64,000 bases of DNA, from positions 1 through 64,000 of the forward strand of contig JBCCYL010000012.1 in NCBI GenBank assembly GCA_039189765.1, read 5' to 3'. Source of the stretch: Cyanobacteria bacterium P01_F01_bin.150. Lineage in GTDB: Bacteria > Cyanobacteriota > Cyanobacteriia > CAKZMO01. Each line of letters begins with the position of its first letter. Position 1 is the stretch's first letter. The notes under the pieces are model-generated. The model ran no database searches. It was not told where the DNA came from and was given only the letters and a program-made list of their open reading frames with translations. Positions 5,701-40,028 of this stretch are shown here, one piece after another. Both the position numbers and the translations under genes were made by a program.

Positions 5701-7452
5701 GCAACATTCTAAAGAGGTTAGCTTGCGCCCTACTGCATCGTTAGTAATGGCAGCAACCTTAGCAAACATTTCTTTTAACTTAACCGGGTTAGCCGTGCCA
5801 CCAAATCCCTTTAGCTTCTCCCCCGCAGGACGAACGCTAGAAACATCTACTTCTACCATCAATTCTGAATGGAGTGATTCATCAGATGACAGCTCAAGAA
5901 GTTTTTGGTAGGCGTTACACCAGCCTTTTCGAGAATCCCCGACTGTTATTTTTACTACGTTTCCAATCCTCCTAACAGTGGTGTATTCATCACGAAGATT
6001 TGATGGCACATCCCCATAATCGCCAAGAGTCCTGACATTCAGCGTATTCCGTATCTCTGGCAACTGCGAAATATATCGCTCTTCCAGTACAGCCCCTGTA
6101 CCGCTACCCATCATGGCCAGCTCCATAAGCAGCCCAAACGACCGCCAATCAATGATATTCGAACTAGTGCAATTTCCTGTTTCGAGAAACCCGTCAATAA
6201 CAAAGCCACTTGTGGCGGGCTCCTCACAGCAGAAAACCTCTTCTTCGAGGCCAATATCTTCAACAGAGATAACTGTCCATCTTGCTCTATTTGAGCTTTT
6301 CACCTTAAACCCTTCTTCCTGATCACTGCGAATAAAATCCTCTTTTTTAAGACTATCCAAGGCAAGAGTGATATATCTAGAAGAGACTTTCCTCGCCCCA
6401 TAGTTTGTGATGTAATCATGATCACCAGTGCCACTTACCCTAATCCCTAGCCTCGGTAAATGCTTTTCAAGGAAAGCAACCAATTCATATGGACCTGATA
6501 TTTGGATAAGCTTATTCCTTACTGTACAAGATCCATCAGTAGCCATTAGTCCACGAAAGAAGCCAAGAATATATTCTGGATGAACAGTTGTCGGAAGTGA
6601 CTTTAAGTCGCCTCCTGGTAAAATTTCATCTGGGAACTTATCTGCATAGGCAATTGCATCACCTCCGTAACTAGGAGGGGTAGAGTAATGTGCAGCTTCA
6701 AAAGCTAGATGAGACAACAACTCATTTTTAGCCCCGCACAAACGAATCTGAAAATCCCATCCACTAGTAGTTGTGCGAGTTCCATCACCATAGTAGATGC
6801 CATGAAGCACTCCCCATAAGTACTCCCTCGAATCGGACGAAGGTCGATTTGGATAAACTCTATGGATTTTGTCACCCTTCTTGATTTCTCTGGTAAAAGT
6901 CGCCTCATGCGAACCATCAATAAACCAACGATGATCTGGCGTAGCAAAAACCTCTTGAGTTTTCGTATAGTTCTTAAGAGTGATCTTGAGTAATTTATCT
7001 ACTCCATAACTATTAAATACGACTTCTTGCCAGTTGCCGTTGCGGTCAGAGACTTTTACAGGAGTTCCTACAATTTCGCTAATCTCTTGAAATCCGCTAT
7101 CAGTCAACACTTTCGTAGACGCTCGAAGACAATTATAAGCTCCACTGTAGTTATTGGGGTCTTTAATCCAATCAGTGCCACCTACCCACAGCCAACGCCC
7201 CGACGGTAATGTTTTCTGCGCCAGCGCATAATCCCTGACCAGCTCAGCTTCTGCATCGGTGAACTGACCCAATTCAACGAGGTGGCCAATGCAGCGATCT
7301 ACGGTCTCATGCCACGCTTCTCTATGTTCGTTGCCATCTTCTCCTGCGGCCCTACGGCTATATGTTCTATAAAAAACTGAATCTGCTGCTGGTGCAGAGA
7401 CAGGAAATTGATGATCGGTGTTCTGGGTCTTGTTGTTAAGTGAAAAATTCAT
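2710..7452 (-). CDS. nrdJ: Class II (B12-dependent) ribonucleotide reductase with three inteins; about 729 aa after splicing
   Basis: VFYRTYSR, PSGRWLWVGG, VVAGNLRRSA, GLNP|CGEI and TTVQPAG|TKSLL motifs; extein length = 1580-320-152-379. Confidence 0.95.
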   Translation of the reverse strand: MNFSLNNKTQNTDHQFPVSAPAADSVFYRTYSRRAAGEDGNEHREAWHETVDRCIGHLVELGQFTDAEAELVRDYALAQKTLPSGRWLWVGGTDWIKDPNNYSGAYNCLRASTKVLTDSGFQEISEIVGTPVKVSDRNGNWQEVVFNSYGVDKLLKITLKNYTKTQEVFATPDHRWFIDGSHEATFTREIKKGDKIHRVYPNRPSSDSREYLWGVLHGIYYGDGTRTTTSGWDFQIRLCGAKNELLSHLAFEAAHYSTPPSYGGDAIAYADKFPDEILPGGDLKSLPTTVHPEYILGFFRGLMATDGSCTVRNKLIQISGPYELVAFLEKHLPRLGIRVSGTGDHDYITNYGARKVSSRYITLALDSLKKEDFIRSDQEEGFKVKSSNRARWTVISVEDIGLEEEVFCCEEPATSGFVIDGFLETGNCTSSNIIDWRSFGLLMELAMMGSGTGAVLEERYISQLPEIRNTLNVRTLGDYGDVPSNLRDEYTTVRRIGNVVKITVGDSRKGWCNAYQKLLELSSDESLHSELMVEVDVSSVRPAGEKLKGFGGTANPVKLKEMFAKVAAITNDAVGRKLTSLECCLIIDEAAVVVVAGNLRRSAGMRQFASEDVPAMTAKDNLWQQQEDGSWKVDPKRDALRMANHTRVFHHKPTLDECIASVRKQYYSGEGAIQWAGEAKQRAQGNDRYGLNPCFAAGTMVVCRDAKDHIFRAPIEELVGQSVKVFDGINWVKCENFRVTGENQPVFAVRTEDGHSMTATSNHNFLIYEEGDHPTVSVKVQLDKLNPGDKLVRCWDNNGESYLPGGYGFSVIKSIESAGTADKVYCCTVETNNRFTLANGILVGNCGEIIGEDFHCDLSEVHLNQIDPNNEREQEQAFRAGALDVVALLHHQFVEPRYQKSREEDPIVGVSFTGLFDFFVNAFGVDWLKWWAAGRPDNNFGRIFRLQEKEYLRKWRDIVESTVKEYCNRHNIKCPNRSTTVQPAGCLDRTALRVFDQGLIYADEVVSPGSGETTDLPYSVRSGVGASTAIANDVLPVVKITLKNGRILKMTPDHRLSINGQWVRADHMVKGMPIDYSLGQYIRTVEAQLIPLDDDRYSRESRFLITGSNRGVISKTVSTPKTMNLDLAYFLGALFGNGCLSFSKKRVRFTHGDKNILRHIKSIGDRLFGIEGNLFFDLDGRRGELVYASVRLYDWFTLNQLKKDGRSKDIERIPYAVRTSSRQSILAFFAGLIDCDGCPRNGSFSIDLASEQFIRNLQQVGEAVGLSLAISHNTKGQNFQESKSIWSVHLSRMKSNWEDCVILNNLSLKLQDRPIRKPARQFNFNPFEIESIEYGKSCHTYDFAVEGVNDDDSWYWQGAIKSHNTKSLLTGASSGWAPPKSQRFIRRVTFGKNDPVALACIDYGYTVVPSQSDKDEDGRLLDDPMDPRCTEWLVEIPTEVPWANLPGADEVDISQFSALTQFDFYMQVQKYYAGHNVSATLEFREHEIEALGTRIFEAIRDDEGYISAALLARFDDHETFPRLPFEPIDKATFDQMSADVLARRTVNSFADAMTKHDQEDGAEAGPAGCDGDKCLLPDYK
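3361..4497 (-). mobile_element. Intein 3 in nrdJ with LAGLIDADG homing endonuclease (379 aa)
   Basis: QPAG|CLDRT ... MTPDHR ... KSHN|T; blocks YFLGALFGNG and FFAGLIDCDG. Confidence 0.9.
4918..5373 (-). mobile_element. Intein 2 in nrdJ, a mini-intein (152 aa)
   Basis: NP|CFAAGTMV ... ATSNHNF ... ANGILVGN|CGE; no endonuclease motifs. Confidence 0.9.
6172..7131 (-). mobile_element. Intein 1 in nrdJ with LAGLIDADG homing endonuclease (320 aa)
   Basis: YN|CLRASTKV ... ETGN|C; endonuclease blocks GVLHGIYYGDG and FFRGLMATDG. Confidence 0.9.
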
Positions 7453-8855: not shown

Positions 8856-9272
8856 TCACTCACTTTCAATCCCTAACCTCTCTGCTTGATGTACTTCGAT
8901 CGCTGGCTCATATGCCCAAACTTTTACACCCCTCACATCCCAGATATGGGAATCGTCACACTCCGCATCCCTGAACCATGCATCAAGAAATGCTTTGACC
9001 AAGTTGTCTGCATCTGGCCGTTGCTTATGCCCTTGGCCGTTGTTCTCCGCCTTCCACTTCTTCGGTTTTGACTTGGGGAATGGAAGATAGAAGATGACTG
9101 TAAGTCGCTCTGGCAAAGTTTCAGGCTTGATGCTGTGGTCACTCATGAACCGATTAACGCTATCTCTGAATTCTCGGTGACGCTGCACACAGGGTCTTTT
9201 ATTCCATCGGTCCGATACAGTTTCACGCGGCTTAGGGCACGGCTTGATAGGGAGATGGTAGAGCAGTGTCAT
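8856..9272 (-). CDS. rusA: RusA-like Holliday junction resolvase
   Basis: RPDADNLVKAFLDA...DDSHI. Confidence 0.85.
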   Translation of the reverse strand: MTLLYHLPIKPCPKPRETVSDRWNKRPCVQRHREFRDSVNRFMSDHSIKPETLPERLTVIFYLPFPKSKPKKWKAENNGQGHKQRPDADNLVKAFLDAWFRDAECDDSHIWDVRGVKVWAYEPAIEVHQAERLGIESE

Positions 9273-10907: not shown

Positions 10908-11657
10908 TCACGCTGCCTCCCGCTCTAATTGCAATACTCTCTGCAATGCGATCGCTGCACATTGAGGCACAACCGCATTGCCTAACCCTCTAAATCTGTC
11001 CAGCCTAGAGGAAATCCCATTACCCCCTCTGCATGAATTGGAAGGCATTTTCCATAATTTTGAGCACAAAAATCCCGGAACCTGTACTGGCACAAAGCCC
11101 CGCTTTTTCGACGACGGCCACGACAATTTATTTTGCTCCCACCCCCTCTTCCCTCGCTTGCAAGCGGAGTTGGGATACGCGACGACAAATACTCTGGCCC
11201 GTAAATGTTCCGCTCCCACGCTTGCCGCCGATACAGTTTGCCACTCCGCATCATACCCGCACTGGGAAAGCTCCCAGAGTACGGCTCCCATATCTCGCCC
11301 TTTTCTCCCAGTAAGGAGCGCGTGAACGTTCTCCAGTACGATGTAATTGGGTCTGCACTCGCTAACAACTCGCATGAGTTCGTAGAACAGTCCCGAGCGT
11401 TTACCTTCCAGTCCTCTACCACTTGGGTTTGCGCTGCTGACATCTTGACAAGGCCATCCCCCTGTAACAAGATCGTATCTTCCTCTATCTCCAGTGAAAG
11501 TTGTGATGTCGTCATGAATTGCTATTCCTGGGAAATTCTTTGCTAATACCTTTTGGCAATACGGGTCAATCTCGACAAATTGCTGAGTTTCAATCCCTAG
11601 CCAATGCGCTGCTAACGCAAAGCCACCAATGCCACTAAATAAGTCAAGGTGCCTCAC
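10908..11657 (-). CDS. dcm: C5-cytosine DNA methyltransferase, alpha chain (motifs I-VIII and X)
   Basis: LDLFSGIGG, GGWPCQ, ENV, HLRARVF, LGNAVVPQ; short (249 aa) and lacking motif IX. Confidence 0.92.
   Translation of the reverse strand: MRHLDLFSGIGGFALAAHWLGIETQQFVEIDPYCQKVLAKNFPGIAIHDDITTFTGDRGRYDLVTGGWPCQDVSSANPSGRGLEGKRSGLFYELMRVVSECRPNYIVLENVHALLTGRKGRDMGAVLWELSQCGYDAEWQTVSAASVGAEHLRARVFVVAYPNSACKRGKRGWEQNKLSWPSSKKRGFVPVQVPGFLCSKLWKMPSNSCRGGNGISSRLDRFRGLGNAVVPQCAAIALQRVLQLEREAA
10982..11515 (-). CDS. Nested out-of-frame beta chain of the C5 methyltransferase (carries motif IX)
   Basis: 177-codon ATG ORF wholly inside dcm in another frame; ends LPIHAEGVMGFPLGWTDL. Confidence 0.7.
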   Translation of the reverse strand: MTTSQLSLEIEEDTILLQGDGLVKMSAAQTQVVEDWKVNARDCSTNSCELLASADPITSYWRTFTRSLLGEKGEIWEPYSGSFPSAGMMRSGKLYRRQAWERNIYGPEYLSSRIPTPLASEGRGGGSKINCRGRRRKSGALCQYRFRDFCAQNYGKCLPIHAEGVMGFPLGWTDLEG

Positions 11658-14747: not shown

Positions 14748-15738
14748 TTGTCATGCCCTCCTCTTCGAAATACTGCATGTACTGCCGAAATAGTCTCTCT
14801 GCGTTGCTTTGTGGCGGTGGCAAGTCGTCTTTCGCTCGTGATCGCCATCTTTCAGCCAAGCCCGTTGCCTTGTCGTTGCTCAAGAAGTTTTCCATTGCCA
14901 AGTTCTTGCCCTGATACCAACCCTCAACCGCAGCCTGAGCCAATGCATCCTGCAAGACCGGAAGCGAATCGTCCCCATGGTCTTTGACAAGCTGATTCAG
15001 TTGTCCCACTCTCCGAGAGCTAAGTTTTGAACACCCCGCAAAGCAATCGAGCTTGTGCTCATTCCAACAAATTCGGAACGGCTCCAAATCCTTGGCAGTC
15101 AGTTTTTTCTTTTTGGCGGAACTTTTTCTTTTTTCCGTTCGCCCATTCTCATGAATTAGCTCGTTTCCACTTGGGCATCCCAATTCTTGTTTTTGCCCGT
15201 TATCACTTTTGGGGACTACAGGGGGAATACCTTCATTTGGTACCTTACTTTTAGTACCTTCTATGGGAGTACCTTCGTCAGCCTCTCGCGGTAGGGGTAC
15301 CCCTACCTGATTCGGTACCCCACCCCTACCTGATTCGGTACCCCACCCCTGGCCTGTTTCGGTAGGGGTGTTTTCGGTAGGGGTACCTGATTTGGTAGTA
15401 GACCTTGCTTCTTGCTTGAGAGAAATAAATTCTTCGGGAGACACCCATGCCTCAAAATGATTAGGGTGGATTATTGTACTTTTGCCTGGTCTCTGCTCAA
15501 GGGATAGAAGATTGCCTTTTTGCATTGCATGAATTGCTGCTCGTGCTGTTTTCTCATTCATCCGGCAATGGCTTGCCGTTTTTGCGATCGATTCGAAGCA
15601 TCCTCTATCCGTTCCAGCTCGACGAGAGATGTGACAGAATACCCTGAACTCATTGGCGTTTAGTGGATAGTCATCCAATGCAGCAGGGATAAAAGCGCCA
15701 TAGTCAGGACGGTTGCCCACAGAAGAGTAATCACTCAT
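14731..15738 (-). CDS. Phage replication initiator (lambda O-like)
   Basis: N-terminal wHTH (EFRVFCHISRRA...SIAKTASHCRMNEKTARAAI), low-complexity linker, helical C-terminus; contains iterons. Confidence 0.8.
   Translation of the reverse strand: MSDYSSVGNRPDYGAFIPAALDDYPLNANEFRVFCHISRRAGTDRGCFESIAKTASHCRMNEKTARAAIHAMQKGNLLSLEQRPGKSTIIHPNHFEAWVSPEEFISLKQEARSTTKSGTPTENTPTETGQGWGTESGRGGVPNQVGVPLPREADEGTPIEGTKSKVPNEGIPPVVPKSDNGQKQELGCPSGNELIHENGRTEKRKSSAKKKKLTAKDLEPFRICWNEHKLDCFAGCSKLSSRRVGQLNQLVKDHGDDSLPVLQDALAQAAVEGWYQGKNLAMENFLSNDKATGLAERWRSRAKDDLPPPQSNAERLFRQYMQYFEEEGMTNARCA
15290..15400. repeat. Iteron cluster; probable replication origin inside the initiator gene
   Basis: CCCCTACCTGATTCGGTACCCCA twice in tandem (15300-15345), plus TTTCGGTAGGGGT twice and TACCTGATTTGGTA. 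Confidence 0.75.
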
Positions 15739-29862: not shown

Positions 29863-30630
29863 ATGAACATTATCCAAGTCAAAGAAATTGGCGGATCGCT
29901 AGTTGTAGATTCCCGGCTTATCGCTGCAAAGCTTGACATTAAACATAAGAACTTGATAGGGACGATAAATAAATACAAGAGCGAAGCTGAAGAAGAATTT
30001 GGGGTAATCGCGTTTGAAACGGAGAAACCCCTTAAAGGTACGCAGGGTGGGCGTCCCAGCGAGTGGGCATATTTAAGCGAAGACCAGTCTTTGTACTTTA
30101 TGACTTTGTCAAAAAATACGCCCAAAGTTCGCCGTTGTAAAAGAGAATTGGTTAAAGCATTTTCTGAAGCCAAAAAAATCATTCCTGCCCAACAGCACGA
30201 AATTGAAAAGCTAAAACTTGAACTTGAGTTGGCGAAAGCTCAGCAAGAAAACGCTATGGCTCAGCAAAAGTTGCTTGCCTCAGTGCAGTGCTTAGAGGCC
30301 ATTTCTCCAGGGCTGGCTCCATTGGCTCTTGGGAACCCAGATTCTGTGGTTGAAAGAGTTGAGATAGTGGAGCACCACGCAGCAGTAGACGGCAAAGGGA
30401 AAACTATTGCTGAGACAACGGGCACCAGTAAAACAGCGATCGCAAAATCTCTAGGGATGAAGAAGGCTAAGGATCTGACCACATGGTTGGAGTCTATTGA
30501 CAGACTAGACTTGCTTGACACAGGAATGCGCATCATTTCCTGTGAATACATTCCTCACGAAAGCATAAACGAAATTCGAAGCCTGTGGGCACTTCGTCAA
30601 GGCAACCGCCAGAAGCTGATAGGGGAGTAA
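29863..30630 (+). CDS. Rha-family phage regulator
   Basis: VDSRLIA..LDIKHKNL...GGRP...LSEDQ...NTPKV...LVKAF. Confidence 0.85.
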   Translation: MNIIQVKEIGGSLVVDSRLIAAKLDIKHKNLIGTINKYKSEAEEEFGVIAFETEKPLKGTQGGRPSEWAYLSEDQSLYFMTLSKNTPKVRRCKRELVKAFSEAKKIIPAQQHEIEKLKLELELAKAQQENAMAQQKLLASVQCLEAISPGLAPLALGNPDSVVERVEIVEHHAAVDGKGKTIAETTGTSKTAIAKSLGMKKAKDLTTWLESIDRLDLLDTGMRIISCEYIPHESINEIRSLWALRQGNRQKLIGE

Positions 30631-30634
30631 GCTA

Positions 30635-33281
30635 ATGCAAAATCAGACACCCAACACCCCTAAAGACAAGACATGGACAGTCCAGGAACGCGCTAAATCC
30701 CTCGGGTTTGAACCCAGCGAAGCTCAATTGGCGCAGATTGAAGTACTGGTAGCACAACTGTACAGAGAACGCCATGGTTTCGAGCCATTAACGCAAGAAG
30801 CAAGCAGCATGTCTGCAAAGGATGAAGTGCTTTACGCTTTTGCGGTGGAGCCAATTCAAGACAAAGAAACTCTTAAGCGCTATTTGCGAGACTACCCAGA
30901 ATATGGCAGCGATCTGATCGACCTCTCCTATGAGTTGCATCGCCCCGCGAATGAACCTACCACTGTTTCCGATGAACAGCAAAGAGTGGTAGAGGCGGCG
31001 ATCGCCATACTGGAAGTGAATGAACGGCCATTGGGTGAGGCCCGTAAGGCGCGACTCGATATCGTGCTCAAAGGGGAGGAAGAGGTGGCCCCAACCTTGT
31101 TAAGTCAGTACCTCAGATATCTAAACCAAAATCCTTGCGTAGAAGGATCTAGAGAGAAGTTTCACTGGAATGTTGGCTTTTGGGCTGGCGTTAGGGGTGA
31201 AAAAGCTGATGAGGCTAGATGTACTCCCGCTTATCTTGAAGGGTGGGGAGCTGGAAATAATGCGGCAATAGAGGAGCAGGCTAATGAAATATCGAATTCA
31301 AACCATACTAACCATAATTAGCGGGTATATTTGCGACGATAATCTTGATTATGCAAAGGATGCTATTGAATCAATAACTGGACATAAGTGCTATCCCGTT
31401 AGCTTGTCGAGGCTAAGCGAATATATAAGGCCAATTGTCTTTTCTGTTTATCCAGAGATGAGCAAGGCACGGAGTATGTTTGAAAATGGCAAGACATACA
31501 CAGAGGTCATCGCCCATTTTCAATCCTTGTATGGCGCAACAATTGAATTAGAATCGATACCTTCAGGGAAAATAACATCACTATCCCATACAGAAGAGCT
31601 TTTGTTCTTAGATCCTACTGCTGAGTCAAAAGTGGTTACTTTTGAGGTGAACAATGAAAGCTAACTTCTACACCCAACGGCTCCGCGCTGCGATCGCCTA
31701 CGGTCGCGACGAAAACTACGGCTGGCGAGCCTGGCTGTGGGTGCGTGATGCATGGCACTTGCTGCTGTTTTTGGTGGCGTGGAGGTTCCGAATGTTTGCC
31801 GACATCACTCAATCTTTCGAGGTCTCTGAGGTAATGCTGTCAGGTCCATGGTTTATCGATGAAGATGACAACGACACAGAGTTTTACTGCCATAAATGGA
31901 AGCCCTTAATCATAAAGTCGGTTGACTTAACAAATTGGGTTCCAGAAACTTTAATGTCTGATAAAGAGATTGCGGCGGCATATTTAGAGGGGGAGGGCTA
32001 CGAGGAATGACTAACACAACCTACCGCTACCTCCGATACTTTCGCCACACTGCAACACTGACGGCCCCTGCTGGATGGGTGACTGTGGCTGTGAAAGTGA
32101 GGGATCGTGGGAACGGCTATCAGGACGTCTTTGATGATGACGGTGGATTCTGGTGTTTCAGGAATGAGTTCCACGATGAGTATTTGGATGAGAAATGTCA
32201 GGCTGAATTAACAGCGGTGCCATCGGGTGAGCCGTATCAACATGAAATCCATAACTCTAAGCCAGCGGTAAAGATAACCTGGAGGCCAGCTATTCCTGGC
32301 TTTGGCGGACTTAACCGCATTGCACTAGAAGAGGATGGCTGGTTTCCACTGCGCATCGTGCAGGGCGAACGGCTCCCTAATGGCAAGATGGCTGTGAACT
32401 GGTGGCATGAAGGGGTACGGAAGACGCGGGTCTTGAAGGATGGGGAATATGAGGTTATTTGGGAGGGAAAAAGTCCTGATGGAAATCTACGCAGAAAAAC
32501 AGCCTCACAAGAACGATAGAGGAGAGGATTGGATAGCGTTTGCTTCCACAGACAAAGAAACTTGCTTGTGTTTGGCATGGGGCAAATCTAGATCTGGTGC
32601 TATTGGGCGACTAGTCCTGAGAAGAGCCGACTTGTTTGGGGTAAAAGCCATCACGGGAGACGAACCATAATGCAACGCTACCAACTAGGCAAAATACACT
32701 CAATCCCAACACTAGGTCAATTAAGATCTGAAAGGCTAAAAGCATTTTTGGTAACCTACGAAGATGGCGCAAGAATCGCATTTTCTTCAAAAGCTGAAGG
32801 TTCTGACCTATGGGAAGACTTTGACTACGTTGAATCCGTGAAGAGGGAGCATAGGTACGACGTTTACGCCAACTTAGGTTACGTCCCTGCTGAAATACTG
32901 CACAAAGATGGATGGACGCTGCCTTGTGATGAATGCTATTCCATGTTTGATGTCGAATGCTGGGATTATGAAGAAGATCGGTACGTCGGGCCTCCGGTTT
33001 ACGATGGTACAAGGTTCTGGTGTTGTCAGGAGTGTCACTTCGCATGGGAGAGTCGAGCAACGAAAAATAAAAAAGTTTCATCCCAAGTGAAAGCGTGTAT
33101 TCGGTCCATGTATCCAAGAGCTTACGAGATATCAATCTGGGGCGAAACTTGCAATTTTAAACTTCCTGGCATGGTAGGAAAGGTTGAGTGGCGATTTATC
33201 GAAGATCCTAGTCATGTCTACGTATTGCCTTGTGACATTGATCTGTTTAAGCGATTGTATCCACTTGACCGATCTGATTAG
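30635..33281 (+). other. Run of overlapping hypothetical phage genes (30635-31321, 31284-31664, 31654-32010, 32007-32519, 32440-32670, 32670-33281)
   Basis: Co-directional ORFs with overlapping starts and stops. Confidence 0.6.
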
Positions 33282-33289
33282 CTTTGCTA

Positions 33290-33322
33290 CCCGACCGCCT
33301 AATAGGGCTTGTGGCGGTCGGG
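33290..33322. terminator. GC-rich hairpin between convergent operons
   Basis: CCCGACCGCC...GGCGGTCGGG. Confidence 0.55.
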
Positions 33323-33829
33323 GGTGTCGAAAAGAGGGGTGCTGGGACAGGGGATATAGATTTGCCTTGAAAGACTTTGGTCAGGGATTGAACCTGTTAC
33401 ACCTGCTGCCAACTACCGTAATTATTTATAATGCAGGTAGGTTTACTCAAAGTCCTTCAACGCCACTGGTCGAGAGTGGTCAGCACCTCCCCACTAATCG
33501 CCAAATAAACGCCCAAGACAACTAATACAAAGTGCAGTATCCGTCGTAGATCACTGCACTTTTGTGCTTTCGTGAGTGACATTTTCTTCATCTTTATCCC
33601 TCTTAAAGAACCAACAAAAATGATGTTTCCACAATATTAAGCGGAACATGTTTTCATAGACTTCGATGCCAAATCCCCAGTTAGGCGAGCTGATCACAAC
33701 TCTGAATAGTGAGTTATGCCCAACTATTTTGTGGAGGATGATCTCAGGCTTAAGCTGCATGGTCATCCTCCACAGGAATGCATCGTCTATAGTTGCCAAA
33801 AATAGTTGATTCGCTTCTATCATTTTGTA

Positions 33830-33866
33830 CTTTCAATCCCTAGAAGAAATTAGAGTTTACTTCAAG
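33830..33866 (-). CRISPR. Single 37-bp CRISPR-repeat-like unit (cyanobacterial type) with an upstream leader-like sequence
   Basis: Minus strand CTTGAAGTAAACTCTAATTTCTTCTAGGGATTGAAAG; 3' ATTGAAAG handle, AATTTC/GGGATT stem; no second repeat seen. Confidence 0.55.
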
Positions 33867-35525
33867 ATCAGCAACCCAAAACTCTAGCTGCACATAGTTT
33901 CTAGTCTTCACTTGCGCGGATCGCCTTCCTTTTCTTTTGTTCTTCCCTCTTAGTTGCCCCGCAGGGCTGGATTCCCTTGTCAGTTCAAGGGGTTCCGCTT
34001 GCGCGGATTCCTGCTGCTCCGATCCCATTGCCAAAAGGCTAGAATCCTTCACAGGCTTAAGTTTCCCAGCGAAAGCCGGGTACCTTCTTTTAGAAGCTTT
34101 TTGCATATCCATCGTTCCGCGCATTCCCATTTTGTAACGCTGGGTTAGCTCAGAACGAATGACTACATTTTTAGCTGCATTGATATCTGCATTCTCGCTA
34201 TGCCCACATGCAGTACAAACAAATTCTGATTGCGACTTACGGCTGTTTGCATCGACAGTCCCGCACTTATTACAGGTTTGGCTATTGTAGTGCGATGGAG
34301 TTAACTTAAGCTCAGTGCCTAATGCTTTGGTTTTCGCCTGAAGCATTAACTTAAATTGACCCATCCCAACGTTCAGCAACGACTTATTAAGCCCTGTCTT
34401 TTGCTTAGCTTTATTCGACTCATACCCTTTCCCAACTTTACGCAGTTTAGGCTTAGGACGTTTAACCATGTTTTTGATAGCATTTTCTTCTAGCGCTATC
34501 GCCCCATATCTCTTGGTGATAATACTAGAAATCTCATGGTTGCGGAGCTTTCGTTGTTTGGCAATTCTCTCATGCAATAATTTGATCTTAGCCAATGTCT
34601 TACGGTAGTTTGAACTCCCTTTGATCTGCCAAGATAATTTACGCTGCAACCTTCTGAGACGCTTCTGAGAGTCTTGATAATAGCGAGGGAAATGATAAGT
34701 TCTCCTGTCACTACAAGCAACCCCAACGGCTACACCCGGATCAATGCCAACACACTGGTCGGGATGCTGTACTTTGGCCTCATCTTTTATCTTCCCGACT
34801 AGCATCAAGTAATAGCCAGAAGACTTTTTGAGAATACGATAACTTTTGATTTGCAGATCTTCAGGCCATCGCCCTTCTAAGCCTCTAACCTTTACTTTAC
34901 CTAGCTTTGGCAACTTGATGCATTGAGGGTCAATGAATTTAGCATTGCCCGACTGGGTATTATTAAGAGTTTTATTGCCGCCTCTGCGCTTGAATTTCGG
35001 TGATTTACGCTTCCCTTTTTTATATTCCTGCCAAGACGTTGCCAATAGCTTAATAGTGCCCTGGGTCAGCTTATATGGGCAAGCTTTGAACCATGGCTTA
35101 TCTGGATGCAACTTATGAGCAAACTTAGGAGTTAGTGAATACTCGCTATCCCTGTCAATCCTAGGCTTCACATAACCCTGAGGGCGAGGGCAATGCTGCC
35201 GGAACTTCCCAATTTTGCCGTGACCACTTTCACAGTATGGGATAGGCAAATAAGTAGTGCGAAGCTTATCGTTTACAGGCAAGCTCTCAATAATTGAGCG
35301 ATCACGCCATTCCGTCTCTTCATTTAACGGCACATAACGATATTCCCATGGCACAGGACAGCACGGCGCATAAGCTTTGTCATGCTTATTGTATGTTGCA
35401 AATTTCTCAAATTCTTTGAGCATAGCTAACCCAGAATTCCACACCCAGCGCTGCACATCCAGCCATTGATCAATACTTTGCTGTTGGACGGTATTCAGGT
35501 ATAACTTGCACTCGATTGTTTTCAC
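33840..35525 (-). CDS. tnpB: RNA-guided nuclease TnpB / type V-U2 (C2c8)-like
   Basis: N-terminal K.Y...Q...RWVWN; RuvC GIDPG, ALEE and NADINAAKN; CNKC/CTAC zinc finger; no tnpA nearby. Confidence 0.9.
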   Translation of the reverse strand: MKTIECKLYLNTVQQQSIDQWLDVQRWVWNSGLAMLKEFEKFATYNKHDKAYAPCCPVPWEYRYVPLNEETEWRDRSIIESLPVNDKLRTTYLPIPYCESGHGKIGKFRQHCPRPQGYVKPRIDRDSEYSLTPKFAHKLHPDKPWFKACPYKLTQGTIKLLATSWQEYKKGKRKSPKFKRRGGNKTLNNTQSGNAKFIDPQCIKLPKLGKVKVRGLEGRWPEDLQIKSYRILKKSSGYYLMLVGKIKDEAKVQHPDQCVGIDPGVAVGVACSDRRTYHFPRYYQDSQKRLRRLQRKLSWQIKGSSNYRKTLAKIKLLHERIAKQRKLRNHEISSIITKRYGAIALEENAIKNMVKRPKPKLRKVGKGYESNKAKQKTGLNKSLLNVGMGQFKLMLQAKTKALGTELKLTPSHYNSQTCNKCGTVDANSRKSQSEFVCTACGHSENADINAAKNVVIRSELTQRYKMGMRGTMDMQKASKRRYPAFAGKLKPVKDSSLLAMGSEQQESAQAEPLELTRESSPAGQLRGKNKRKGRRSAQVKTRNYVQLEFWVADLEVNSNFF

Positions 35526-35564
35526 AACGTAAAATCATTTTGTACACCCAGATGGTAGCACAAA

Positions 35565-35855
35565 ATGAAGCGCAATAGACGGTTGAACATTAGGCTGTCG
35601 GAAGATGAGTACCAAAAAATAAAAGCCTATGCTGATGAAAATGATAGGGCTGTATCCGATGTCGCCCGATCGTTTATTGCAGCACTCGATACAGATGGCG
35701 AGCTTAATAGAATGCTCAAGATATCGGAGGAGCAGACGCGAATGGTAATTGAACTTATGCGTATGGCTCAAGCCATAGGAGTAGAACCATCAGAATGGCT
35801 TAAGGCAGAGGCAGAGGCTAGAGGAATTGATCTGGATTTTCGGCAATGCAGCTAG
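35565..35855 (+). CDS. Ribbon-helix-helix (CopG/MobC-like) regulator divergent from tnpB
   Basis: RLNIRLSEDEYQKIKAYA...VSDVARSFI. Confidence 0.8.
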   Translation: MKRNRRLNIRLSEDEYQKIKAYADENDRAVSDVARSFIAALDTDGELNRMLKISEEQTRMVIELMRMAQAIGVEPSEWLKAEAEARGIDLDFRQCS

Positions 35856-36146
35856 GTACAGTAACTCCCAGGGGGGATGCATCACCCCCTCTCCTCCATC
35901 TTTTGCACTACACGAATACCTACAACACAATACCCCTGCCGAATTGCTACCGGATAATCCAACGATCCCATCACACAAGACACCCTGCACCATATCCAAC
36001 GCCCCAATGGGAAACCCGCAACGGCATACTCCACTAGTATTAGCTCATCATTCACCGCAAATAAGCGATCGCAACATGGCAAAAATGAAAGTTGCTGGTC
36101 CCAGATCGACTGAAAGAATTGGGCGTTGTAGAGAGGATGGTGTGAG

Positions 36147-36440
36147 TCACTTCAAATAATCATGCTGCCACTCAAATGTATCATCATCAATCTGTGGGTA
36201 AGGTGTTATGGGTGCCCAGTATTCGAGATCCACCTCTAAGCAAGTATTTCCAGCAAAATCAGCATAGGGGTCTTCCTCAAAAGTATATGCGTCTGCAAGA
36301 TAATCCCATCGGGCAACCCCAATGTGCCTTTGAATTCGCTGATTTCCTCCTACCTCGTAATACGTAAATTTTCTGGAGATCGCCAAAAACACCTCATCTT
36401 TTGGCGGTGGATTGTCGGTTAGTCTTTGCCAGTTATCCAT
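36147..36440 (-). CDS. DUF551-like phage protein
   Basis: W..LTDNPP...YWAPI..P. Confidence 0.5.
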   Translation of the reverse strand: MDNWQRLTDNPPPKDEVFLAISRKFTYYEVGGNQRIQRHIGVARWDYLADAYTFEEDPYADFAGNTCLEVDLEYWAPITPYPQIDDDTFEWQHDYLK

Positions 36441-36867
36441 ACTTACACCAATACCCCTCTATATCACTAAATATATCTTGCACTACATCCCAGTTCCCAC
36501 CCCCTAGACCGCAGCCCATGCCATAGGGAAGATGCACGATCATTTGTCTCTCTGCTAACTTCCCGGCGATCGACTTCAACGCCTCGTAATTTGTATGCCG
36601 TTGCCCACGGCCATACCATAACTGCCCAAACAGATTGAGTACAGTTAGGGTCTCAGAAACCCTAACTGGCTGCACCATACCCAACAACTGGGATGTATCG
36701 CCTACATCTGCTGCTTGCTGCCAAAGCTTTCGATATTCGCCATACACTACTGGCCATTTCTGCCGCATCTTCAGCGCCAGCCCCGTGCCCATGACGCCCT
36801 GGCAGTTTACTTGATGGCCTATGATGCCGTGGGTGACGGTGAGGATGTCTTTGTCTATTATCTGCAT
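36433..36867 (-). CDS. Macrodomain protein (ADP-ribose hydrolase)
   Basis: HQVNCQGVMGTGLA, NLFGQ, PYGMGCGLGGGNW. Confidence 0.9.
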   Translation of the reverse strand: MQIIDKDILTVTHGIIGHQVNCQGVMGTGLALKMRQKWPVVYGEYRKLWQQAADVGDTSQLLGMVQPVRVSETLTVLNLFGQLWYGRGQRHTNYEALKSIAGKLAERQMIVHLPYGMGCGLGGGNWDVVQDIFSDIEGYWCKYG

Positions 36868-37891
36868 CGGTCCTACCACTCAAAAGCGAATGTTAACTGA
36901 TAGTTCACCGGAATAGTCTCGGTCAAACGTTGCCTTAGTTCCTGCTCAAACTCTGGGTTTTCTGGTGCAGCCTCATCAATAAATACGAGAATAGATAGGC
37001 CATCTAAATTGCGGCCTACTATAACGTCTGCACATTTGAGATCGCCCCAGTTAATGGAACCGCTTAAATGTAGCTTTGCACACTTTACGTCTTCCCTGAT
37101 GGCATCAATCGCATCATTCACTGCCTGTTGTATCTTAGTGGGGGTTATGTCGGGTTGTTGAGCTGAGATGGTTTCCACTTGGGTCTTGGACCAAACTATA
37201 TCATCAGGATTATTCTCACACAGCCATCGGAACGACTCTCTAATAGCCGTGTTCGCTACTATCTCTTGCCATTCTCCGTAAGTACAACCATGATGTCCTC
37301 CGTTACTTGGATTGCTGAAAGTCCCAAGACTTTCAATTTTACAAGCCACATGAACGGCCATCTGGGGACAACTTACATTGGAGATTTTTCCACCTGTTAG
37401 CTGTTGGATGTATCGATTAACCATCAACGAATCTGAGTCTATTTGGCTATGCGTCATTAATCAAAATCCTTATCTACAACATCCTTTATAAATCCATTCT
37501 TTACAAACATCTCGGTAAAATCCACTTAACACAACGTCTACGCCAAAACTCTCTGACAGGTTGCAAGCGTGGGAGAAGGCTTTTCTTTTCGATGTAAAAT
37601 GACGGACACTAGAACAATGGTAATGAGGTTGGGCTTGCTCCATTGGCGAAGTTTTGGAATCCACCATAGATCGCCTTTAGGCTCAACCCAGAAAGTTGCT
37701 TTACGTCGCTTCACTGCTTAAACTCCTTGACTACAATGCCCTCTGGGTACGCAACCGCTGCACTCACTTCACCCACTGTATTTTCATGGCCACTGGGGCA
37801 GTAGATGATGTCGCCCTTATTGGGGATGCGGTCGGCAATAGTGAACCAGCGATCGCAGTGGTCACAGGAGAAGTGGCAGAGAAATTCGATA

Positions 37892-38533
37892 CTAACTTTC
37901 ATCTACTAATCCCGATATATCTAACTTGCTTCCAGTATTCGGATCAACCAACTGCCCCTGTAACCCCAGATCAAACAATGCCCGTGTTATTTTTACGTCA
38001 TTTAAGCAATAATCGATCACCTCTTGGCGCTTACCATCCTGCCAAAGCTTAGGAGCTAATTCACCGCTGCCCGTTTTTGGGAACCCGTTGGCTTCGCCAA
38101 TACGGCCTAGTGCGTAGCTATAGCCTTTAGGACAGTCTTGCCATTTAGGTGACCCATAGGCGGCGATGCGGATTAACTCCAGTAAATCGTAATCTGTCGT
38201 GATAGCTTGTCTATCAAACCCTGGATGTATAGTCTGATAGATGCGATTAGCATAAATCAACTTGTCATCAAACGCTTTTGAGTTAAAGCCCACCAACGAA
38301 TGAGAGCCATGATATAGAGTATCGATTGCCATCTCAATCATTTCTTGCCTTGGATCGTCGCAGTCAATCACAATCACGCCCTGGCTGCCATTACTATGCG
38401 CCCAGCCAATACAGGCAATCCCCATATTTGCGTGGTCGTGCCAGCCGTCACAATAGTCATAGTTAGGGTCGTTATCGACTCCCTTCTGTGGAATGCATTT
38501 GATTATCTCGCAGTCATAGACTAAGTAGTTCAT
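37892..38533 (-). CDS. DEDD / RNase H-like 3'-5' exonuclease
   Basis: YDCE, GFNSKAFD, YDLL, YCLNDV. Confidence 0.8.
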   Translation of the reverse strand: MNYLVYDCEIIKCIPQKGVDNDPNYDYCDGWHDHANMGIACIGWAHSNGSQGVIVIDCDDPRQEMIEMAIDTLYHGSHSLVGFNSKAFDDKLIYANRIYQTIHPGFDRQAITTDYDLLELIRIAAYGSPKWQDCPKGYSYALGRIGEANGFPKTGSGELAPKLWQDGKRQEVIDYCLNDVKITRALFDLGLQGQLVDPNTGSKLDISGLVDES

Positions 38534-40028
38534 TGCAGCAACGCCTCCAAGTCAGCCTTAATCACATCAATATTCCGCTTTATAAGCTCATCTCGGCCAA
38601 ACAACTGCTGAGCTATTTTGAACGCTGATATTCGCTTATCTCCATCATCCATAGCCATATATCGCCGCAATGTGTCCACGGATATGGGAGCAAAACTCGT
38701 CCATGCGCGATCACGTTGAACACAAATCGAACAGTACAAGCCCATATCTTTATCCGGCCTAATCGGTTGGCGATCTAAAGTAACAGGCCGCCCTGCAAAT
38801 TCAGTCAAATACTTGCATAAGTGACGAGCTGCATCGCGAATCTGCTTACGTTCCTTCTTTGTAAGGTTGGTGAGCGAACCTCGCTTAGCGTTCTCGATCC
38901 CAGACTGCTTCATCATCTGAACGGCGATCAGATATGCTTCCCAAAGAGGAGGATCGCCAAATCTGCCACCTACGGCATGAGGGCAATGCTCAGCATAATA
39001 TTTCGCTCTGTTATATGGATGACGTTCATTTTTGCAGCGGTCCACTATTCGCTTTGCTATCTCATGATTGGTTAGATTTTTCACTACTGCAAACTGCACT
39101 CCACATCGATTGAACAAAAGTGGTAATAGCTAACCATTGTTACAGTTGTCGCTGCTATCATCGCAATAATTAACACGCAAAGCGTAATGCTAGACCATTT
39201 GTCCATTTGTTTACTCCTTATTGCATATCCAATAAATAAGCGATCGCTTGTTATCTCTTCTTGGCTTAGACCCCCAATCAGCCTGGGGACTGAGGTATTT
39301 CCTTGCGCTTTAGCTTGTTGATCATCTTCTTTTCTCCCTCTCACTCTTCCAAATCCTATCCATCTCCGCTGCTGCCTCACAAATGCGCCTGAGCAGCGCA
39401 AGGCGATCGCTAAGTGTTGTCATGGGGTCAGCTTTTATGTTGCGCACGTACCCCTTAAACGTCTCGGTTCGTGGCTTCACCTGCACTGGGTCACAGCCCA
39501 TCTGCTCTAGCTCATATGCCATATCAATGGCATTGCGTTTATGGAGCTTAAGCGCCCACTCGAAATGCGAGTCTATTTCATTTGTCGTGCATCGCGGATC
39601 ATCGGCCCACAGCTCTGCATTCAGCAGTATGGACTCGGGCGTAATGGTGCTGCCGTCCTGCACGTTACGTTTTGGGTGTGGAGTCATTGTGCTATTCCTT
39701 TCCATTGTTAGCTTTACAGACACTACGCCATCTTCTTCTTTTACAGACTGAGCTACAAACTCAGTCCTCCACTTCACTATCGATTCAGCGCAATCTTGGA
39801 TTAGCAGTTGCTTGCGAAAAGTGGGAATGTGTCCAGGTTCATTCTGTGATGCTGTGCTGATGTGATATATCTCCGCAACTATGCCCATTGGACTTAGACA
39901 GCAGCTCACGTCTATCCAGGAATAATCAGAAGCAGACAACCGTTGCTTCAAAAATGCGCGTATCTCGTTCGCTATCTGGATAGATAGCGATGGCTGCTGC
40001 GTTGTTCTGCCGTACGATATTTCCTGCT

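What the first reader, a model, noticed from the sequence alone, without database searches (positions are those of the whole stretch)
33790..35855. Phage-borne TnpB/C2c8-like nuclease fused to a CRISPR-leader-like sequence and one repeat: a minimal TnpB-to-Cas12 intermediate
Seen: a 561-aa TnpB with all three RuvC acidic residues intact, a Cys/His-containing N-terminal insertion (YAPCCPVPWEY...), no tnpA, and a divergent RHH gene. On the minus strand its 3' end reads: an omegaRNA-like segment (about 34090-34005, ...GCTGGGAAACTTAAGCCTGTG...GCAGGAATCC); two ATCCGCGCAAG direct repeats 87 bp apart (33998-34008, 33911-33921); a boxA-like GACTAGAAACTAT; then the 37-mer CTTGAAGTAAACTCTAATTTCTTCTAGGGATTGAAAG, which contains the stop codon. 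Recalled knowledge: cyanobacterial type I-D/III repeats are about 37 nt ending GGGATTGAAAC/G with an AATCCC/GGGATT stem (kept here through G-U pairs), their leaders carry CCGCGCAA motifs, and several type V lineages arose from TnpB capturing arrays. Inference: the guide is omegaRNA scaffold plus repeat plus the following TACAAAATGATAGAAGCGAATCAACTATTTTTGGCAA. The leader could let host Cas1-Cas2 reprogram the nuclease against rival phages or host genes, with RHH autoregulation.
Basis: partly seen in the sequence, partly recalled or inferred. Interest (0 to 1): 0.85.

Follow-up and report, generated by a model that had tools for sequence, protein, structure and literature searches.

The report
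Phage C2c8 nuclease with single built-in guide
A phage carries a small TnpB/Cas12-like nuclease of the uncharacterised C2c8 (type V-U2) family whose guide RNA seems to be encoded in and just after the gene's own tail and ends in one CRISPR-repeat-like stub instead of an array, a compact variant of a system already reported in a cyanophage.

Summary
The sequence features are real. The 561-aa ORF (33840-35525, minus) is a C2c8/type V-U2 family member: NCBIfam 374.9 bits against a cutoff of 350, with an intact RuvC triad and zinc finger.

Its disordered C-terminal tail (residues 472-561) overlaps a conserved RNA scaffold. In 5 of 5 comparable loci, the loop of the first scaffold hairpin pairs with the last 4 nt of the repeat. 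Two of those pairs show compensatory changes. This resembles the pseudoknot of Cas12p and other tracrRNA-using Cas12 guide RNAs.

The 37-mer sits where relatives start arrays of 2 to at least 23 repeats. Only its last 13 nt (TAGGGATTGAAAG) are conserved, and the window holds one copy. It is therefore an omegaRNA-like single guide.

The "CRISPR leader" reading fails. One ATCCGCGCAAG copy is half of a covarying GNRA hairpin, the other lies in conserved codons, and the published I-D leader motif is absent.

The new lead is that the first 11 guide nt recur 9 nt upstream of the gene's start codon, preceded by GTG. That is a GTN PAM in related systems.

Phage V-U2, TranC and Cas12p are already described, so this is a new variant and interest is moderate.

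The parts
33840..35525 (-). c2c8 (type V-U2 family / TnpB-like) gene, 561 aa, GTG start; stop TAG at 33842-33840
   Evidence: NCBIfam NF038192 V_cas_c2c8 374.9 bits (cutoff 350) and NF040570 guided_TnpB 191.4 bits (cutoff 100). Pfam HTH_OrfB_IS605, OrfB_IS605 and Cas12f1-like_TNB. RuvC D262/E346/D447 and CxxC...CxxC conserved. AF2 pLDDT 82.3.
33843..34112 (-). Codons for the C-terminal tail (residues 472-561), predicted disordered; overlaps the RNA scaffold (dual use)
   Evidence: pLDDT below 50 for 472-474 and 477-561. The tail stays open in most homologues, with conserved patches YxAxAG, QQE, RRSAQ and QLxxW. These patches coincide with RNA elements.
33830..34085 (-). Predicted guide-RNA scaffold (omegaRNA / fused tracr-crRNA-like), about 255 nt; the 5' end is not mapped
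   Evidence: MFE -95 kcal/mol over 33810-34100, z -3.31, 0 of 200 shuffles as stable. Conserved blocks shared with L001, L002, L005 and L006.
34065..34080 (-). Scaffold hairpin 1 (CCCGGC-UUUC-GCUGGG); CUUUC (34075-34071; the 5' C also closes the stem) is complementary to the repeat terminus GAAAG (33834-33830): proposed pseudoknot
   Evidence: stem 92% paired, with 3 of 5 pairs changed on both sides. Pseudoknot 4 of 4 pairs formed in 5 of 5 loci, with 2 pairs showing compensatory changes (CG/GC, GC/UA). Slid controls pair at 29-60%.
33994..34007 (-). GNRA-capped hairpin UCCGC-GCAA-GCGGA just after CAGGAA; contains ATCCGCGCAAG copy 1 (34008-33998)
   Evidence: -10.7 kcal/mol, z -3.35. 5 of 5 pairs show changes on both sides in 4 loci, 90% paired, 0 of 500 shuffles reach this.
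33911..33921 (-). ATCCGCGCAAG copy 2, inside the conserved RRSAQ codons of the tail
   Evidence: D16. R535, S536 and A537 are invariant in 11 close homologues. L002 has ATCCCGCGAACAG at the same place, where it forms part of its anti-repeat.
33830..33866 (-). 37-mer 'repeat'; only the 3' 13 nt TAGGGATTGAAAG (33842-33830) are conserved. It occupies the position of repeat 1 of related arrays
   Evidence: One copy in the window. 12/13 against the L005 and L002 repeat ends but 9/24 and 8/24 in the 5' part. Arrays start at or near the stop codon in L002 and L007.
33810..33829 (-). Predicted guide (UACAAAAUGAUAGAAGCGAA...; true length unknown). It is ordinary flanking phage DNA and covers the ATG (33823) of the next ORF
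   Evidence: Position directly 3' of the repeat terminus, as in omegaRNA and crRNA (inference). No significant match in phage or plasmid collections.
35534..35547 (-). GTG + TACAAAATGAT: an 11-nt copy of the guide's 5' end preceded by a GTN-type motif, 9-22 nt upstream of the c2c8 start codon
   Evidence: The exact 12-mer GTACAAAATGAT occurs only at 33819-33830 and 35534-35545 in 64 kb (D10, 49). None of 45 spacers and trailing sequences in 4 other loci, nor the L006 guide, has an anchored match of 11 nt or more.
35535..35568 (.). Imperfect palindrome in the 39-nt c2c8/RHH intergenic region (candidate RHH operator)
   Evidence: I5: 16-nt arms, 81% complementary, 2 nt apart.
35565..35855 (+). 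Divergent 96-aa probable ribbon-helix-helix gene
   Evidence: Sub-threshold RHH, NikA and RelB hits. A divergent CopG-family RHH gene also precedes c2c8 on the Microcystis plasmid, with no detectable sequence similarity.
33551..33823 (-). Downstream 90-aa ORF with no family hit; its start codon lies inside the predicted guide

Best explanation
This is a phage-borne, nuclease-competent member of the C2c8 (type V-U2) branch of the TnpB/Cas12 family. It carries a single built-in guide RNA instead of a CRISPR array.

The last 270 nt of the gene code for a disordered protein tail. They also encode an omegaRNA/tracrRNA-like scaffold. The scaffold ends in a repeat stub (UAGGGAUUGAAAG) whose last bases pair with the loop of the first scaffold hairpin, forming a pseudoknot. 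The roughly 17-20 nt of phage DNA that follow serve as the guide.

The RNP is inferred to recognise DNA carrying that sequence next to a 5' PAM/TAM, probably GTN. The likeliest full-length target is a genome copy that lacks the cassette. Joining the upstream ...GGGTG to TACAAAATGATAGAAGCG... recreates PAM plus protospacer. The cassette would then behave like TnpB, giving selfish retention and homing among co-infecting phages.

The 11-nt PAM-flanked copy in its own promoter may give cleavage-free autorepression, with the divergent RHH protein as a second regulator.

Shown: family membership, conserved catalytic residues, RNA covariation, positional homology of the stub with repeat 1, and absence of an array. 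Inferred: transcription and processing of the RNA, guide length, PAM, and both proposed targets.
For: - Family: NF038192 374.9 bits against cutoff 350.
- Catalytic residues: D262, E346, C418, C421, C437 and C440 invariant and D447 at least 90% conserved in 89 homologues.
- Fold: pLDDT 82.3, with 472-561 disordered. Best structural matches are Cas12p-TrxA 9jfs (E 1.8e-20), ISFba1 and ISDra2 TnpB, Cas12f and LaTranC. The profile against PDB gives ISDra2 TnpB 5.9e-37 and Cas12p 7.1e-35.
- RNA: the region is more stable than shuffles (z -3.31). The hairpin after CAGGAA has 5 of 5 pairs with double changes. The pseudoknot forms 4 of 4 pairs in 5 of 5 loci, 2 of them compensatory.
- Precedent: Cas12p uses a terminal AAAC:UUUG pseudoknot, a 37-nt repeat, a GTN PAM and a disordered CTD (passages of bioRxiv 10.1101/2025.01.20.633832).
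- Positional homology: arrays begin at the stop codon in L007 (8 repeats) and 14 nt before it in L002 (2 repeats).
- A second array-less locus, L006 (Chroococcidiopsis plasmid), has a lone TTGCAAG terminus right after its stop, matching its CUUG loop.
- Promoter copy: the exact 12-mer occurs only at these two places in 64 kb.
Against: - There is no expression or RNA-end data.
- Covariation rests on only 4-5 loci. I derived the structures by looking at these same sequences.
- L007 was left out of the pseudoknot count because it misaligned. It offers only 3 pairs (GUG:CAC).
- L001 and L007 were left out of the CAGGAA hairpin count because their hairpins are offset.
- The 37-mer shows no significant anti-repeat pairing with its scaffold (cofold z +0.46, duplex z +0.55). 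L002 and L007 do (z -3.5 and -3.1).
- No element-free sibling phage was available, so the homing target is hypothetical.
- The promoter match is a single, post hoc observation. As an unanchored 11-mer it is at chance level (22.3 bits against a shuffle mean of 20.4 and maximum of 30.2).
- It is not seen in the other loci.
- The PAM of C2c8 is unknown.
Confidence: 0.62

Rival explanations
1. One reading: a CRISPR leader plus one repeat. Host type I-D/III Cas1-Cas2 can insert new spacers there and reprogram the phage nuclease.
For: - The 37-mer is 37 nt long and ends AGGGATTGAAAG, like I-D repeats (tables seen). By hand it matches 24 of 37 positions of the A. variabilis CRISPR18 repeat printed.
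- The Microcystis V-U2 repeat closely resembles the host DR1 I-D repeat.
- Hsieh & Peters propose that I-D adaptation serves V-K and V-U2 arrays (section 12 of bioRxiv 10.1101/2021.02.06.429022).
- Kieper et al. detected rare integration even without a leader.
Against: - There is one copy only and no second repeat.
- The 'leader' is conserved coding tail and structured scaffold.
- I-D motif I GCCAAA is absent, and only one TTGGC occurs, at -168.
- The 5' 24 nt match V-U2 repeats at chance level.
- The stem is no more stable than shuffles.
- The 24/37 figure is the best of about 25 repeats I compared by eye.
- An insertion at the junction would duplicate the stop-codon-bearing repeat and alter the ORF end.
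Confidence: 0.08
2. A decayed V-U2 array. The cassette once had a normal array, as in cyanophage CL131. It lost all but the first repeat, and the 'guide' is just whatever DNA now follows. The nuclease may be idle or serve another role.
For: - Relatives have 2 to at least 23 repeats at the same position.
- L002's second repeat is already degenerate (80% identity).
- The 5' part of the 37-mer has diverged.
- There is no significant anti-repeat pairing.
Against: - The catalytic and zinc residues are intact.
- The pseudoknot complementarity is exact (5 bp, CUUUC:GAAAG) and specific to this locus.
- The ORF, scaffold hairpins and terminus are all preserved.
- A second array-less locus (L006) keeps the same logic.
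Confidence: 0.15
3. The 12-bp direct repeats (33819-33830 and 35534-35545) are merely a scar of how the 1.7-kb cassette entered the phage, by microhomology-mediated or cassette recombination, or are RHH operator half-sites. They have nothing to do with guide targeting.
For: - The repeats bracket exactly the ORF plus scaffold (D10).
- There is no extended similarity beyond the 12 nt.
- A third, 10/12 copy forms the palindrome partner at the RHH start (I5, 49).
- All three copies contain an ATG. Two of these are ORF start codons.
Against: - The downstream copy starts exactly at guide position 1.
- The promoter copy is preceded by GTG, a GTN PAM in Cas12p, V-K and I-D.
- IS200/IS605 elements make no target duplication (established knowledge, recalled).
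Confidence: 0.3
4. The solitary repeat is a phage RNA decoy or regulator aimed at the host's I-D/III CRISPR-Cas. It would be a solitary repeat unit or crRNA-like RNA that soaks up Cas6 or effector proteins, or redirects them.
For: - The I-D-like 3' handle and length.
- Phage mini-arrays and crRNA-like RNAs that suppress host CRISPR are reported (abstract of bioRxiv 10.1101/2023.03.03.530964; listing abstract of 10.1101/2024.10.29.618823).
- RNA anti-CRISPRs are recalled from memory; no paper on them was seen.
Against: - The terminus covaries with the C2c8 scaffold rather than standing alone.
- It has a weak hairpin.
- It lies inside a gene's end and has no promoter of its own in the scan.
- The host and its repeats are unknown.
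Confidence: 0.05

Closest known systems
Type V-U2 (C2c8) locus of Aphanizomenon cyanophage vB_AphaS-CL131 (PMC6293099)
   Same: Phage-borne TnpB-sized C2c8 homologue: 32% identity over 82% of the query. It has no other cas genes. It shares the conserved YRAW.../AAGCCTG scaffold block and the QLxxW motif just before repeat 1.
   Different: CL131 has 11 full repeats of 36 nt plus a truncated terminal copy (10 spacers reported), and its ORF stops about 250 nt before the array. Here there is one repeat stub, the ORF runs into it, a divergent RHH gene is present, and the guide is flanking DNA.
TnpB-omegaRNA of IS200/IS605 elements (ISDra2, ISFba1)
   Same: Core fold and RuvC/zinc-finger architecture. 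The guide RNA overlaps the 3' end of the gene. There is a single guide formed by the DNA flanking the element's end. The TAM-plus-flank logic fits.
   Different: No tnpA, no recognisable LE/RE, and a single copy. The IS605 and IS607 TnpB models score far below their cutoffs (154 against 425; 107.6 against 350). There is an extra about 90-aa Cys-rich REC-side segment (residues about 45-135) and a CRISPR-repeat-like terminus.
Cas12p / 'Cas12 hacker' (type V-P), phage-encoded (bioRxiv 10.1101/2025.01.20.633832)
   Same: Top structural match (9jfs, E 1.8e-20, TM 0.53/0.56). It is phage-associated, 500-700 aa and described as an early TnpB-to-Cas12 intermediate. It has a disordered CTD, a 37-nt repeat and a pseudoknot between the last 4 repeat nt and the tracrRNA.
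   Different: Only 20% identity. Cas12p has arrays, a separate tracrRNA and a thioredoxin-binding insertion. None of these was tested or seen here.
Cas12k (V-K) truncated repeat-spacer units (bioRxiv 10.1101/2021.02.06.429022)
   Same: About 13 nt of the repeat's 3' end plus a short fixed guide suffice. Both are cyanobacterial, with 37-nt I-D-like repeats and a GTN PAM.
   Different: In V-K these units sit beside a normal array and target tRNA attachment sites for a Tn7-like transposon. Cas12k is nuclease-dead.
CreR RNAs and tracr-L (Cas autorepression by degenerate repeat plus partially matching spacer)
   Same: [quoted passage not shown]
   Different: Those act alongside full arrays and are encoded upstream of the cas genes. 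Here the only guide would have this role, and it is unproven.
TranC (transposon-CRISPR intermediates; LaTranC structures 9jfq/9jfo)
   Same: Compact TnpB-derived effectors at the omegaRNA/CRISPR boundary (reviews seen). Structural match E 7.8e-13.
   Different: More distant in sequence (profile E 2.9e-13 over the C-terminal part only). I saw the original TranC paper only through citing papers.

Membership tests
C2c8 protein family (NCBIfam NF038192) | Whole-protein score above the curated cutoff | tested here: met
   374.9 bits against 350, residues 2-426 on profile positions 1-455 of 457.
C2c8 protein family | N-terminal CCPxPW segment and C112 conserved with relatives | tested here: met
   P57 and W60 invariant, C55, C56 and C112 at least 90% in 27 sequences. 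W60 and C112 at least 90% in 89.
Type V-U2 CRISPR-Cas locus | CRISPR array (2 or more repeats with spacers) next to the effector gene | tested here: not met
   One copy of the 37-mer with up to 3 mismatches. No tandem or array structure in 64 kb.
TnpB family RNA-guided endonuclease (NF040570) | Subfamily model above cutoff; RuvC D-E-D and zinc finger present | tested here: met
   191.4 bits against 100. D262, E346, D447 and four Cys conserved.
IS200/IS605 or IS607 insertion sequence | tnpA (Y1 or serine) nearby; family-specific TnpB model above cutoff | tested here: not met
   No tnpA in 88 ORFs. NF038281 154 against 425 and NF038280 107.6 against 350.
IS200/IS605 or IS607 insertion sequence | Multiple copies; recognisable left and right ends | tested here: inconclusive
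   One copy in the window. The 90%-identity protein cluster has 1 member on 1 contig.
omegaRNA / tracr-crRNA type guide | Conserved structured scaffold overlapping the 3' end of the gene, with a pseudoknot to the guide-adjacent terminus | tested here: met
   (n = 4-5 loci, compensatory changes). Presence of a transcript was not testable.
tracrRNA:crRNA system | Significant anti-repeat:repeat duplex | tested here: not met
   Window z +0.46 and +0.55. L002 z -3.47, L007 z -3.06, L005 duplex z -2.49.
Type I-D style CRISPR leader | Motif I GCCAAA about 50 bp upstream; motifs II and III distal; A-T-rich non-coding DNA (PMC6607411) | tested here: not met
   No GCCAAA in 220 nt. One TTGGC at -168. 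The region is inside a conserved ORF.
Cyanobacterial I-D-type repeat | 37 nt, Cas6 hairpin AATCCC-N5-GGGATT, 3' handle ATTGAAAC/G | tested here: inconclusive
   Length and 3' 11 nt match. The stem survives only with two G-U pairs and is not above shuffles.
Cas12p (type V-P) | Thioredoxin-binding insertion, separate tracrRNA, array, GTN PAM | not tested
   Only fold and profile similarity were measured.
CreR / tracr-L-like autoregulatory guide | Partial guide match next to a PAM in the effector's own promoter; conserved among relatives | tested here: inconclusive
   11 nt plus GTG at 35547-35534. Not found for 45 spacers and trailing sequences in 4 loci or for the L006 guide. The PAM of C2c8 is unknown.
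Ribbon-helix-helix regulator | Pfam RHH model above the gathering score | tested here: inconclusive
   Best scores 22.6 against 27 (NikA-like) and 16.4 against 27 (RHH_7).

The most novel reading that the evidence does not exclude
The single natural guide of this nuclease-competent phage C2c8 has two jobs.

First, loss of the cassette through its 12-bp flanking repeats recreates GTG + TACAAAATGATAGAAGCG.... So would any sibling phage that never had the cassette. That is a perfect PAM-flanked target, which the RNP cuts, driving retention and homing of the cassette in phage populations.

Second, the 11-nt PAM-flanked partial copy left in its own promoter lets the same RNP bind without cutting and shut off c2c8 and the divergent RHH gene. 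This would be a CreR/tracr-L-style autorepression circuit built from an omegaRNA.

That would be a first functional assignment for the uncharacterised V-U2 family. It would also be a concrete example of regulation and selfish spread combined in one guide.
Probability: 0.15. Interest if true: 0.75.

Novelty: new variant of a known kind. Interest (0 to 1): 0.5.

Why it matters
In the reviews read here, V-U2/C2c8 is the one original 'V-U' group listed without a Cas12 name (PMC11641405, passages). My searches for 'C2c8', 'V-U2' and 'Cas12p' found no functional study of it.

This locus packs a likely active effector, its scaffold, one guide, a candidate PAM and a candidate self-target into 2 kb. 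It is therefore a convenient entry point for RNA-seq, PAM screens and repression assays.

Comparing 7 loci also shows that the family spans array-less single-guide forms, 2-repeat forms and long arrays at the same junction. That spread is what the TnpB-to-Cas12 transition models predict.

It does not show adaptive reprogramming by host Cas1-Cas2. Phage-borne V-U2, TranC and Cas12p already occupy much of the conceptual ground.

Tried and rejected
- Rfam scan of 32500-37000 at E up to 1: no hit.
- Megablast of 30000-40000 against phages: no match.
- Guide plus 37-mer (33770-33866) against phages and plasmids in blastn 'distant' mode: only chance hits, E at least 0.8.
- Related-locus scan with the 27-sequence alignment failed because no stretch was conserved enough. 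A narrower alignment gave only 3 loci, of which L003 and L004 are distant and uninformative.
- First AF2 model with 11 sequences was poor (pLDDT 46.8). It was replaced by the 89-sequence run.
- Repeat:anti-repeat energy test: not significant for the window.
- Idea that the DNA downstream of the guide is a remnant of a second c2c8 3' end: rejected, with the best match 22.3 bits against a shuffle maximum of 30.2.
- Composition: no clear island. GC is 0.42-0.46 in the cassette and mostly 0.43-0.52 around it.
- Promoter and terminator scan: counts at or below shuffle expectation and nothing placed usefully.
- RHH against the Microcystis CopG and against the Gloeobacter upstream protein: no similarity.
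- Host inference from the DnaB-like helicase: uninformative.
- 'boxA-like' GACTAGAAACTAT: no test supports it. The AAACTA core lies in a scaffold block shared with CL131.
- Self-promoter matches in other C2c8 loci: none.

Full report
**What is there**

On the minus strand, 35525..33840 is a 561-codon ORF starting at GTG.
- Pfam finds HTH_OrfB_IS605, OrfB_IS605 and the Cas12f1-like TNB zinc ribbon.
- NCBIfam places it above the curated cutoff of the C2c8 model (NF038192, 374.9 bits against 350) and of the general guided-TnpB model (191.4 against 100).
- It scores far below the cutoffs of the IS605- and IS607-specific TnpB models.
- Among 89 aligned homologues, D262, E346 and the four zinc-ribbon cysteines are invariant, and D447 is conserved in at least 90%.

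**Context**

The window looks like a temperate phage or prophage. It carries a large serine integrase, ribonucleotide reductase, thymidylate synthase, RusA, DnaB-like helicase, RecT, SSB, anti-repressors and endolysins.
- All 88 ORFs of 70 aa or more were scanned with PHROGs or Pfam. None is a tnpA or a cas adaptation gene.
- The divergent 96-aa ORF at 35565-35855 gives only sub-threshold RHH-type hits.

**Relatives**

- 324 proteins match at E up to 1e-10. The closest are 44-53% identical. The few that carry names are cyanobacterial C2c8 or TnpB.
- The best phage match is ORF061 of Aphanizomenon phage CL131. It was published in 2018 as a phage-encoded type V-U2 system with a 10-spacer array (PMC6293099, abstract and passages).
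- I obtained DNA for six related loci:

| Locus | Source | Repeats after the gene |
|---|---|---|
| L001 | CL131 cyanophage | 11 full, plus a truncated terminal copy |
| L002 | cyanobacterial MAG, 47% identical | 2 |
| L005 | Microcystis plasmid | 23 full copies, plus a truncated one |
| L007 | Gloeobacter plasmid | 8 |
| L006 | Chroococcidiopsis plasmid | none |
| L003, L004 | MAG contigs | distant, uninformative |

**The tail and the RNA**

With an 89-sequence alignment, AF2 folds residues 1-471 confidently (mean pLDDT 82.3) and leaves 472-561 disordered. The ORF nevertheless stays open through this tail in most homologues. It shows short conserved patches: YxAxAG, QQE, RRSAQ and QLxxW. At the DNA level these patches are RNA elements.
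- The 291-nt stretch 34100..33810 folds better than all 200 shuffles (z -3.31).
- Directly after a conserved CAGGAA there is a 5-bp hairpin. Its sequence differs but its pairing is kept in the window, L002 and L006, and partly in L005. All 5 pairs show changes on both sides, 90% of cells are paired, and 0 of 500 shuffles reach this.
- L001 and L007 have an offset hairpin at the equivalent place and were not counted.
- The window's version is UCCGC-GCAA-GCGGA. This means the first ATCCGCGCAAG 'leader motif' is simply one arm plus the GNRA loop of this hairpin.
- The second copy lies in the invariant RRSAQ codons. In L002 the same place forms part of a clear anti-repeat.

**The repeat stub**

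The conserved hairpin 1 (window CCCGGC-UUUC-GCUGGG, 34080..34065) has a loop complementary to the last bases of the repeat in every comparable locus.

| Locus | Hairpin-1 loop | Repeat terminus |
|---|---|---|
| Window | CUUUC | GAAAG |
| Microcystis (L005) | GUUU | AAAC |
| L002, CL131 (L001) | CUUG | CAAG |
| L006 | CUUG | lone TTGCAAG placed right after its stop codon |

- Counted on a 5-locus alignment, the 4 pseudoknot pairs form in 5 of 5 loci, with compensatory changes at 2 pairs. Slid controls pair in only 29-60% of cells.
- L007 misaligned and was left out. By eye it offers only GUG:CAC.
- This is the arrangement described for Cas12p. There, the last four repeat bases (AAAC) pair with UUUG of the tracrRNA, and such pseudoknots are said to be general for tracrRNA-using Cas12 enzymes (bioRxiv 10.1101/2025.01.20.633832, passages).
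- Cas12p is also the top structural match of the model (9jfs, E 1.8e-20). It is followed by ISFba1 and ISDra2 TnpB, Cas12f and LaTranC.

The 37-mer occupies the exact position of repeat 1 of the related arrays. Those arrays start at the stop codon in L007 and 14 nt before it in L002.
- Only its 3' 13 nt resemble them: 12/13 against L005 and L002, but 9/24 and 8/24 in the rest.
- Its own hairpin is not above shuffles.
- It lacks significant anti-repeat pairing.
- Functionally it looks like the roughly 13-nt 'truncated repeat-spacer units' of Cas12k or the 3' end of an omegaRNA.

**The leader idea**

Published I-D repeats do end in AGGGATTGAAAC/G (tables). A preprint has proposed cross-class adaptation of V-K and V-U2 arrays by I-D Cas1-Cas2-Cas4.

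The conserved I-D leader motif near -50 is GCCAAA (PMC6607411, read in full). It is absent here. The supposed leader is conserved coding and structured RNA. With a single repeat, nothing indicates acquisition.

**A new lead**

The 12-mer GTACAAAATGAT is the last base of the repeat plus the first 11 bases of the guide. It recurs once in 64 kb, at 35545..35534.
- That site is 9 nt upstream of the c2c8 start codon, inside the palindromic 39-nt region shared with the RHH gene.
- There it is preceded by GTG. GTN is the PAM of Cas12p, V-K and I-D. At the guide locus it is preceded by AAG.
- None of 45 spacers and trailing sequences in four other loci, nor the L006 guide, has an anchored match of 11 nt or more in its own locus.
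- As an unanchored match, an 11-mer is at chance level. Its weight therefore comes only from its position, and I noticed it post hoc.

There are three readings:
- (a) TnpB-like logic. Loss of the cassette, or a naive sibling genome, recreates GTG plus the full target, which would be cut.
- (b) A CreR/tracr-L-like partial match that represses the promoter without cleavage (precedents).
- (c) A recombination scar or an RHH operator half-site.

**Verdict**

- The identification as a C2c8-like nuclease with an omegaRNA-like scaffold and a repeat-like terminus is supported and sharpened.
- The leader and Cas1-Cas2 reprogramming mechanism is not supported.
- Phage-borne V-U2 (2018), TranC and Cas12p already describe TnpB-to-Cas12 intermediates. 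This is therefore a new variant of a known but uncharacterised kind, of moderate interest, with one testable new hypothesis.

Noticed in passing
window 8863-8875 (-) and 11587-11599 (-): Two more 13-mers matching TAGGGATTGAAAS at 12/13 or better (3 in the window against about 0.08 expected by my arithmetic). Both lie in coding sequence and encode LGIE: the end of the RusA-like gene, and the C5-methyltransferase near its DLFSGIGG motif. They are probably codon coincidence.
   Followed up: partly
window 33730-33741 / 33763-33774: A perfect 12-bp inverted repeat with a 21-nt loop inside the 90-aa ORF, 55-100 nt downstream of the guide. There is no U-tract. It could end the guide transcript, or it may cast doubt on that ORF (I6).
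   Followed up: no
L006 4989-5025 (Chroococcidiopsis thermalis plasmid pCHRO.01): An annotated c2c8 with no array at all. It has a lone TTGCAAG terminus directly after its stop codon, matching its own hairpin-1 loop (CUUG). Its ORF end (..NSSY*) resembles the window's (..NSNFF*). It is a second single-guide C2c8.
   Followed up: partly
Alignment A1; proteins P0089, P0105 and Pfam column: Many named C2c8 proteins (Chroococcidiopsis, Chlorogloea) lack the TNB zinc ribbon and the RuvC-III motif, carrying PF01385 only. They are probably nuclease-dead. The window's protein belongs to the intact branch.
   Followed up: partly
L005 5690-5841 (Microcystis NIES-2481 plasmid p1): The segment GGGGCGCAATCC...TGGG before the array is duplicated. 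The first copy is followed by a degenerate repeat-like ...CCTTGAAAAC, as if an old single-guide terminus preceded the present array. A divergent CopG-family RHH gene sits upstream of c2c8.
   Followed up: no
L007 5288-5394 (Gloeobacter morelensis plasmid): Spacers 2 and 3 of the 8-repeat array are identical, which indicates a repeat-spacer duplication rather than acquisition.
   Followed up: no
window 2710-7452 (-): A 1580-aa ribonucleotide reductase ORF matched in 4 separate stretches, which suggests inserted elements such as inteins.
   Followed up: no
window 189-1793 (+): A 534-aa large serine recombinase/integrase, implying a temperate phage or prophage. It is not an IS607-type TnpA.
   Followed up: no
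window 15299-15364: A 23-nt tandem repeat, 2.8 copies, 93% matches, inside the region of the replication-initiation-like gene. It may be iterons.
   Followed up: no
table: Many close homologues sit on contigs of only 1.6-3.5 kb. This could reflect multi-copy mobile elements or assembly breaks at adjacent arrays. It was not resolvable without their DNA.
   Followed up: no
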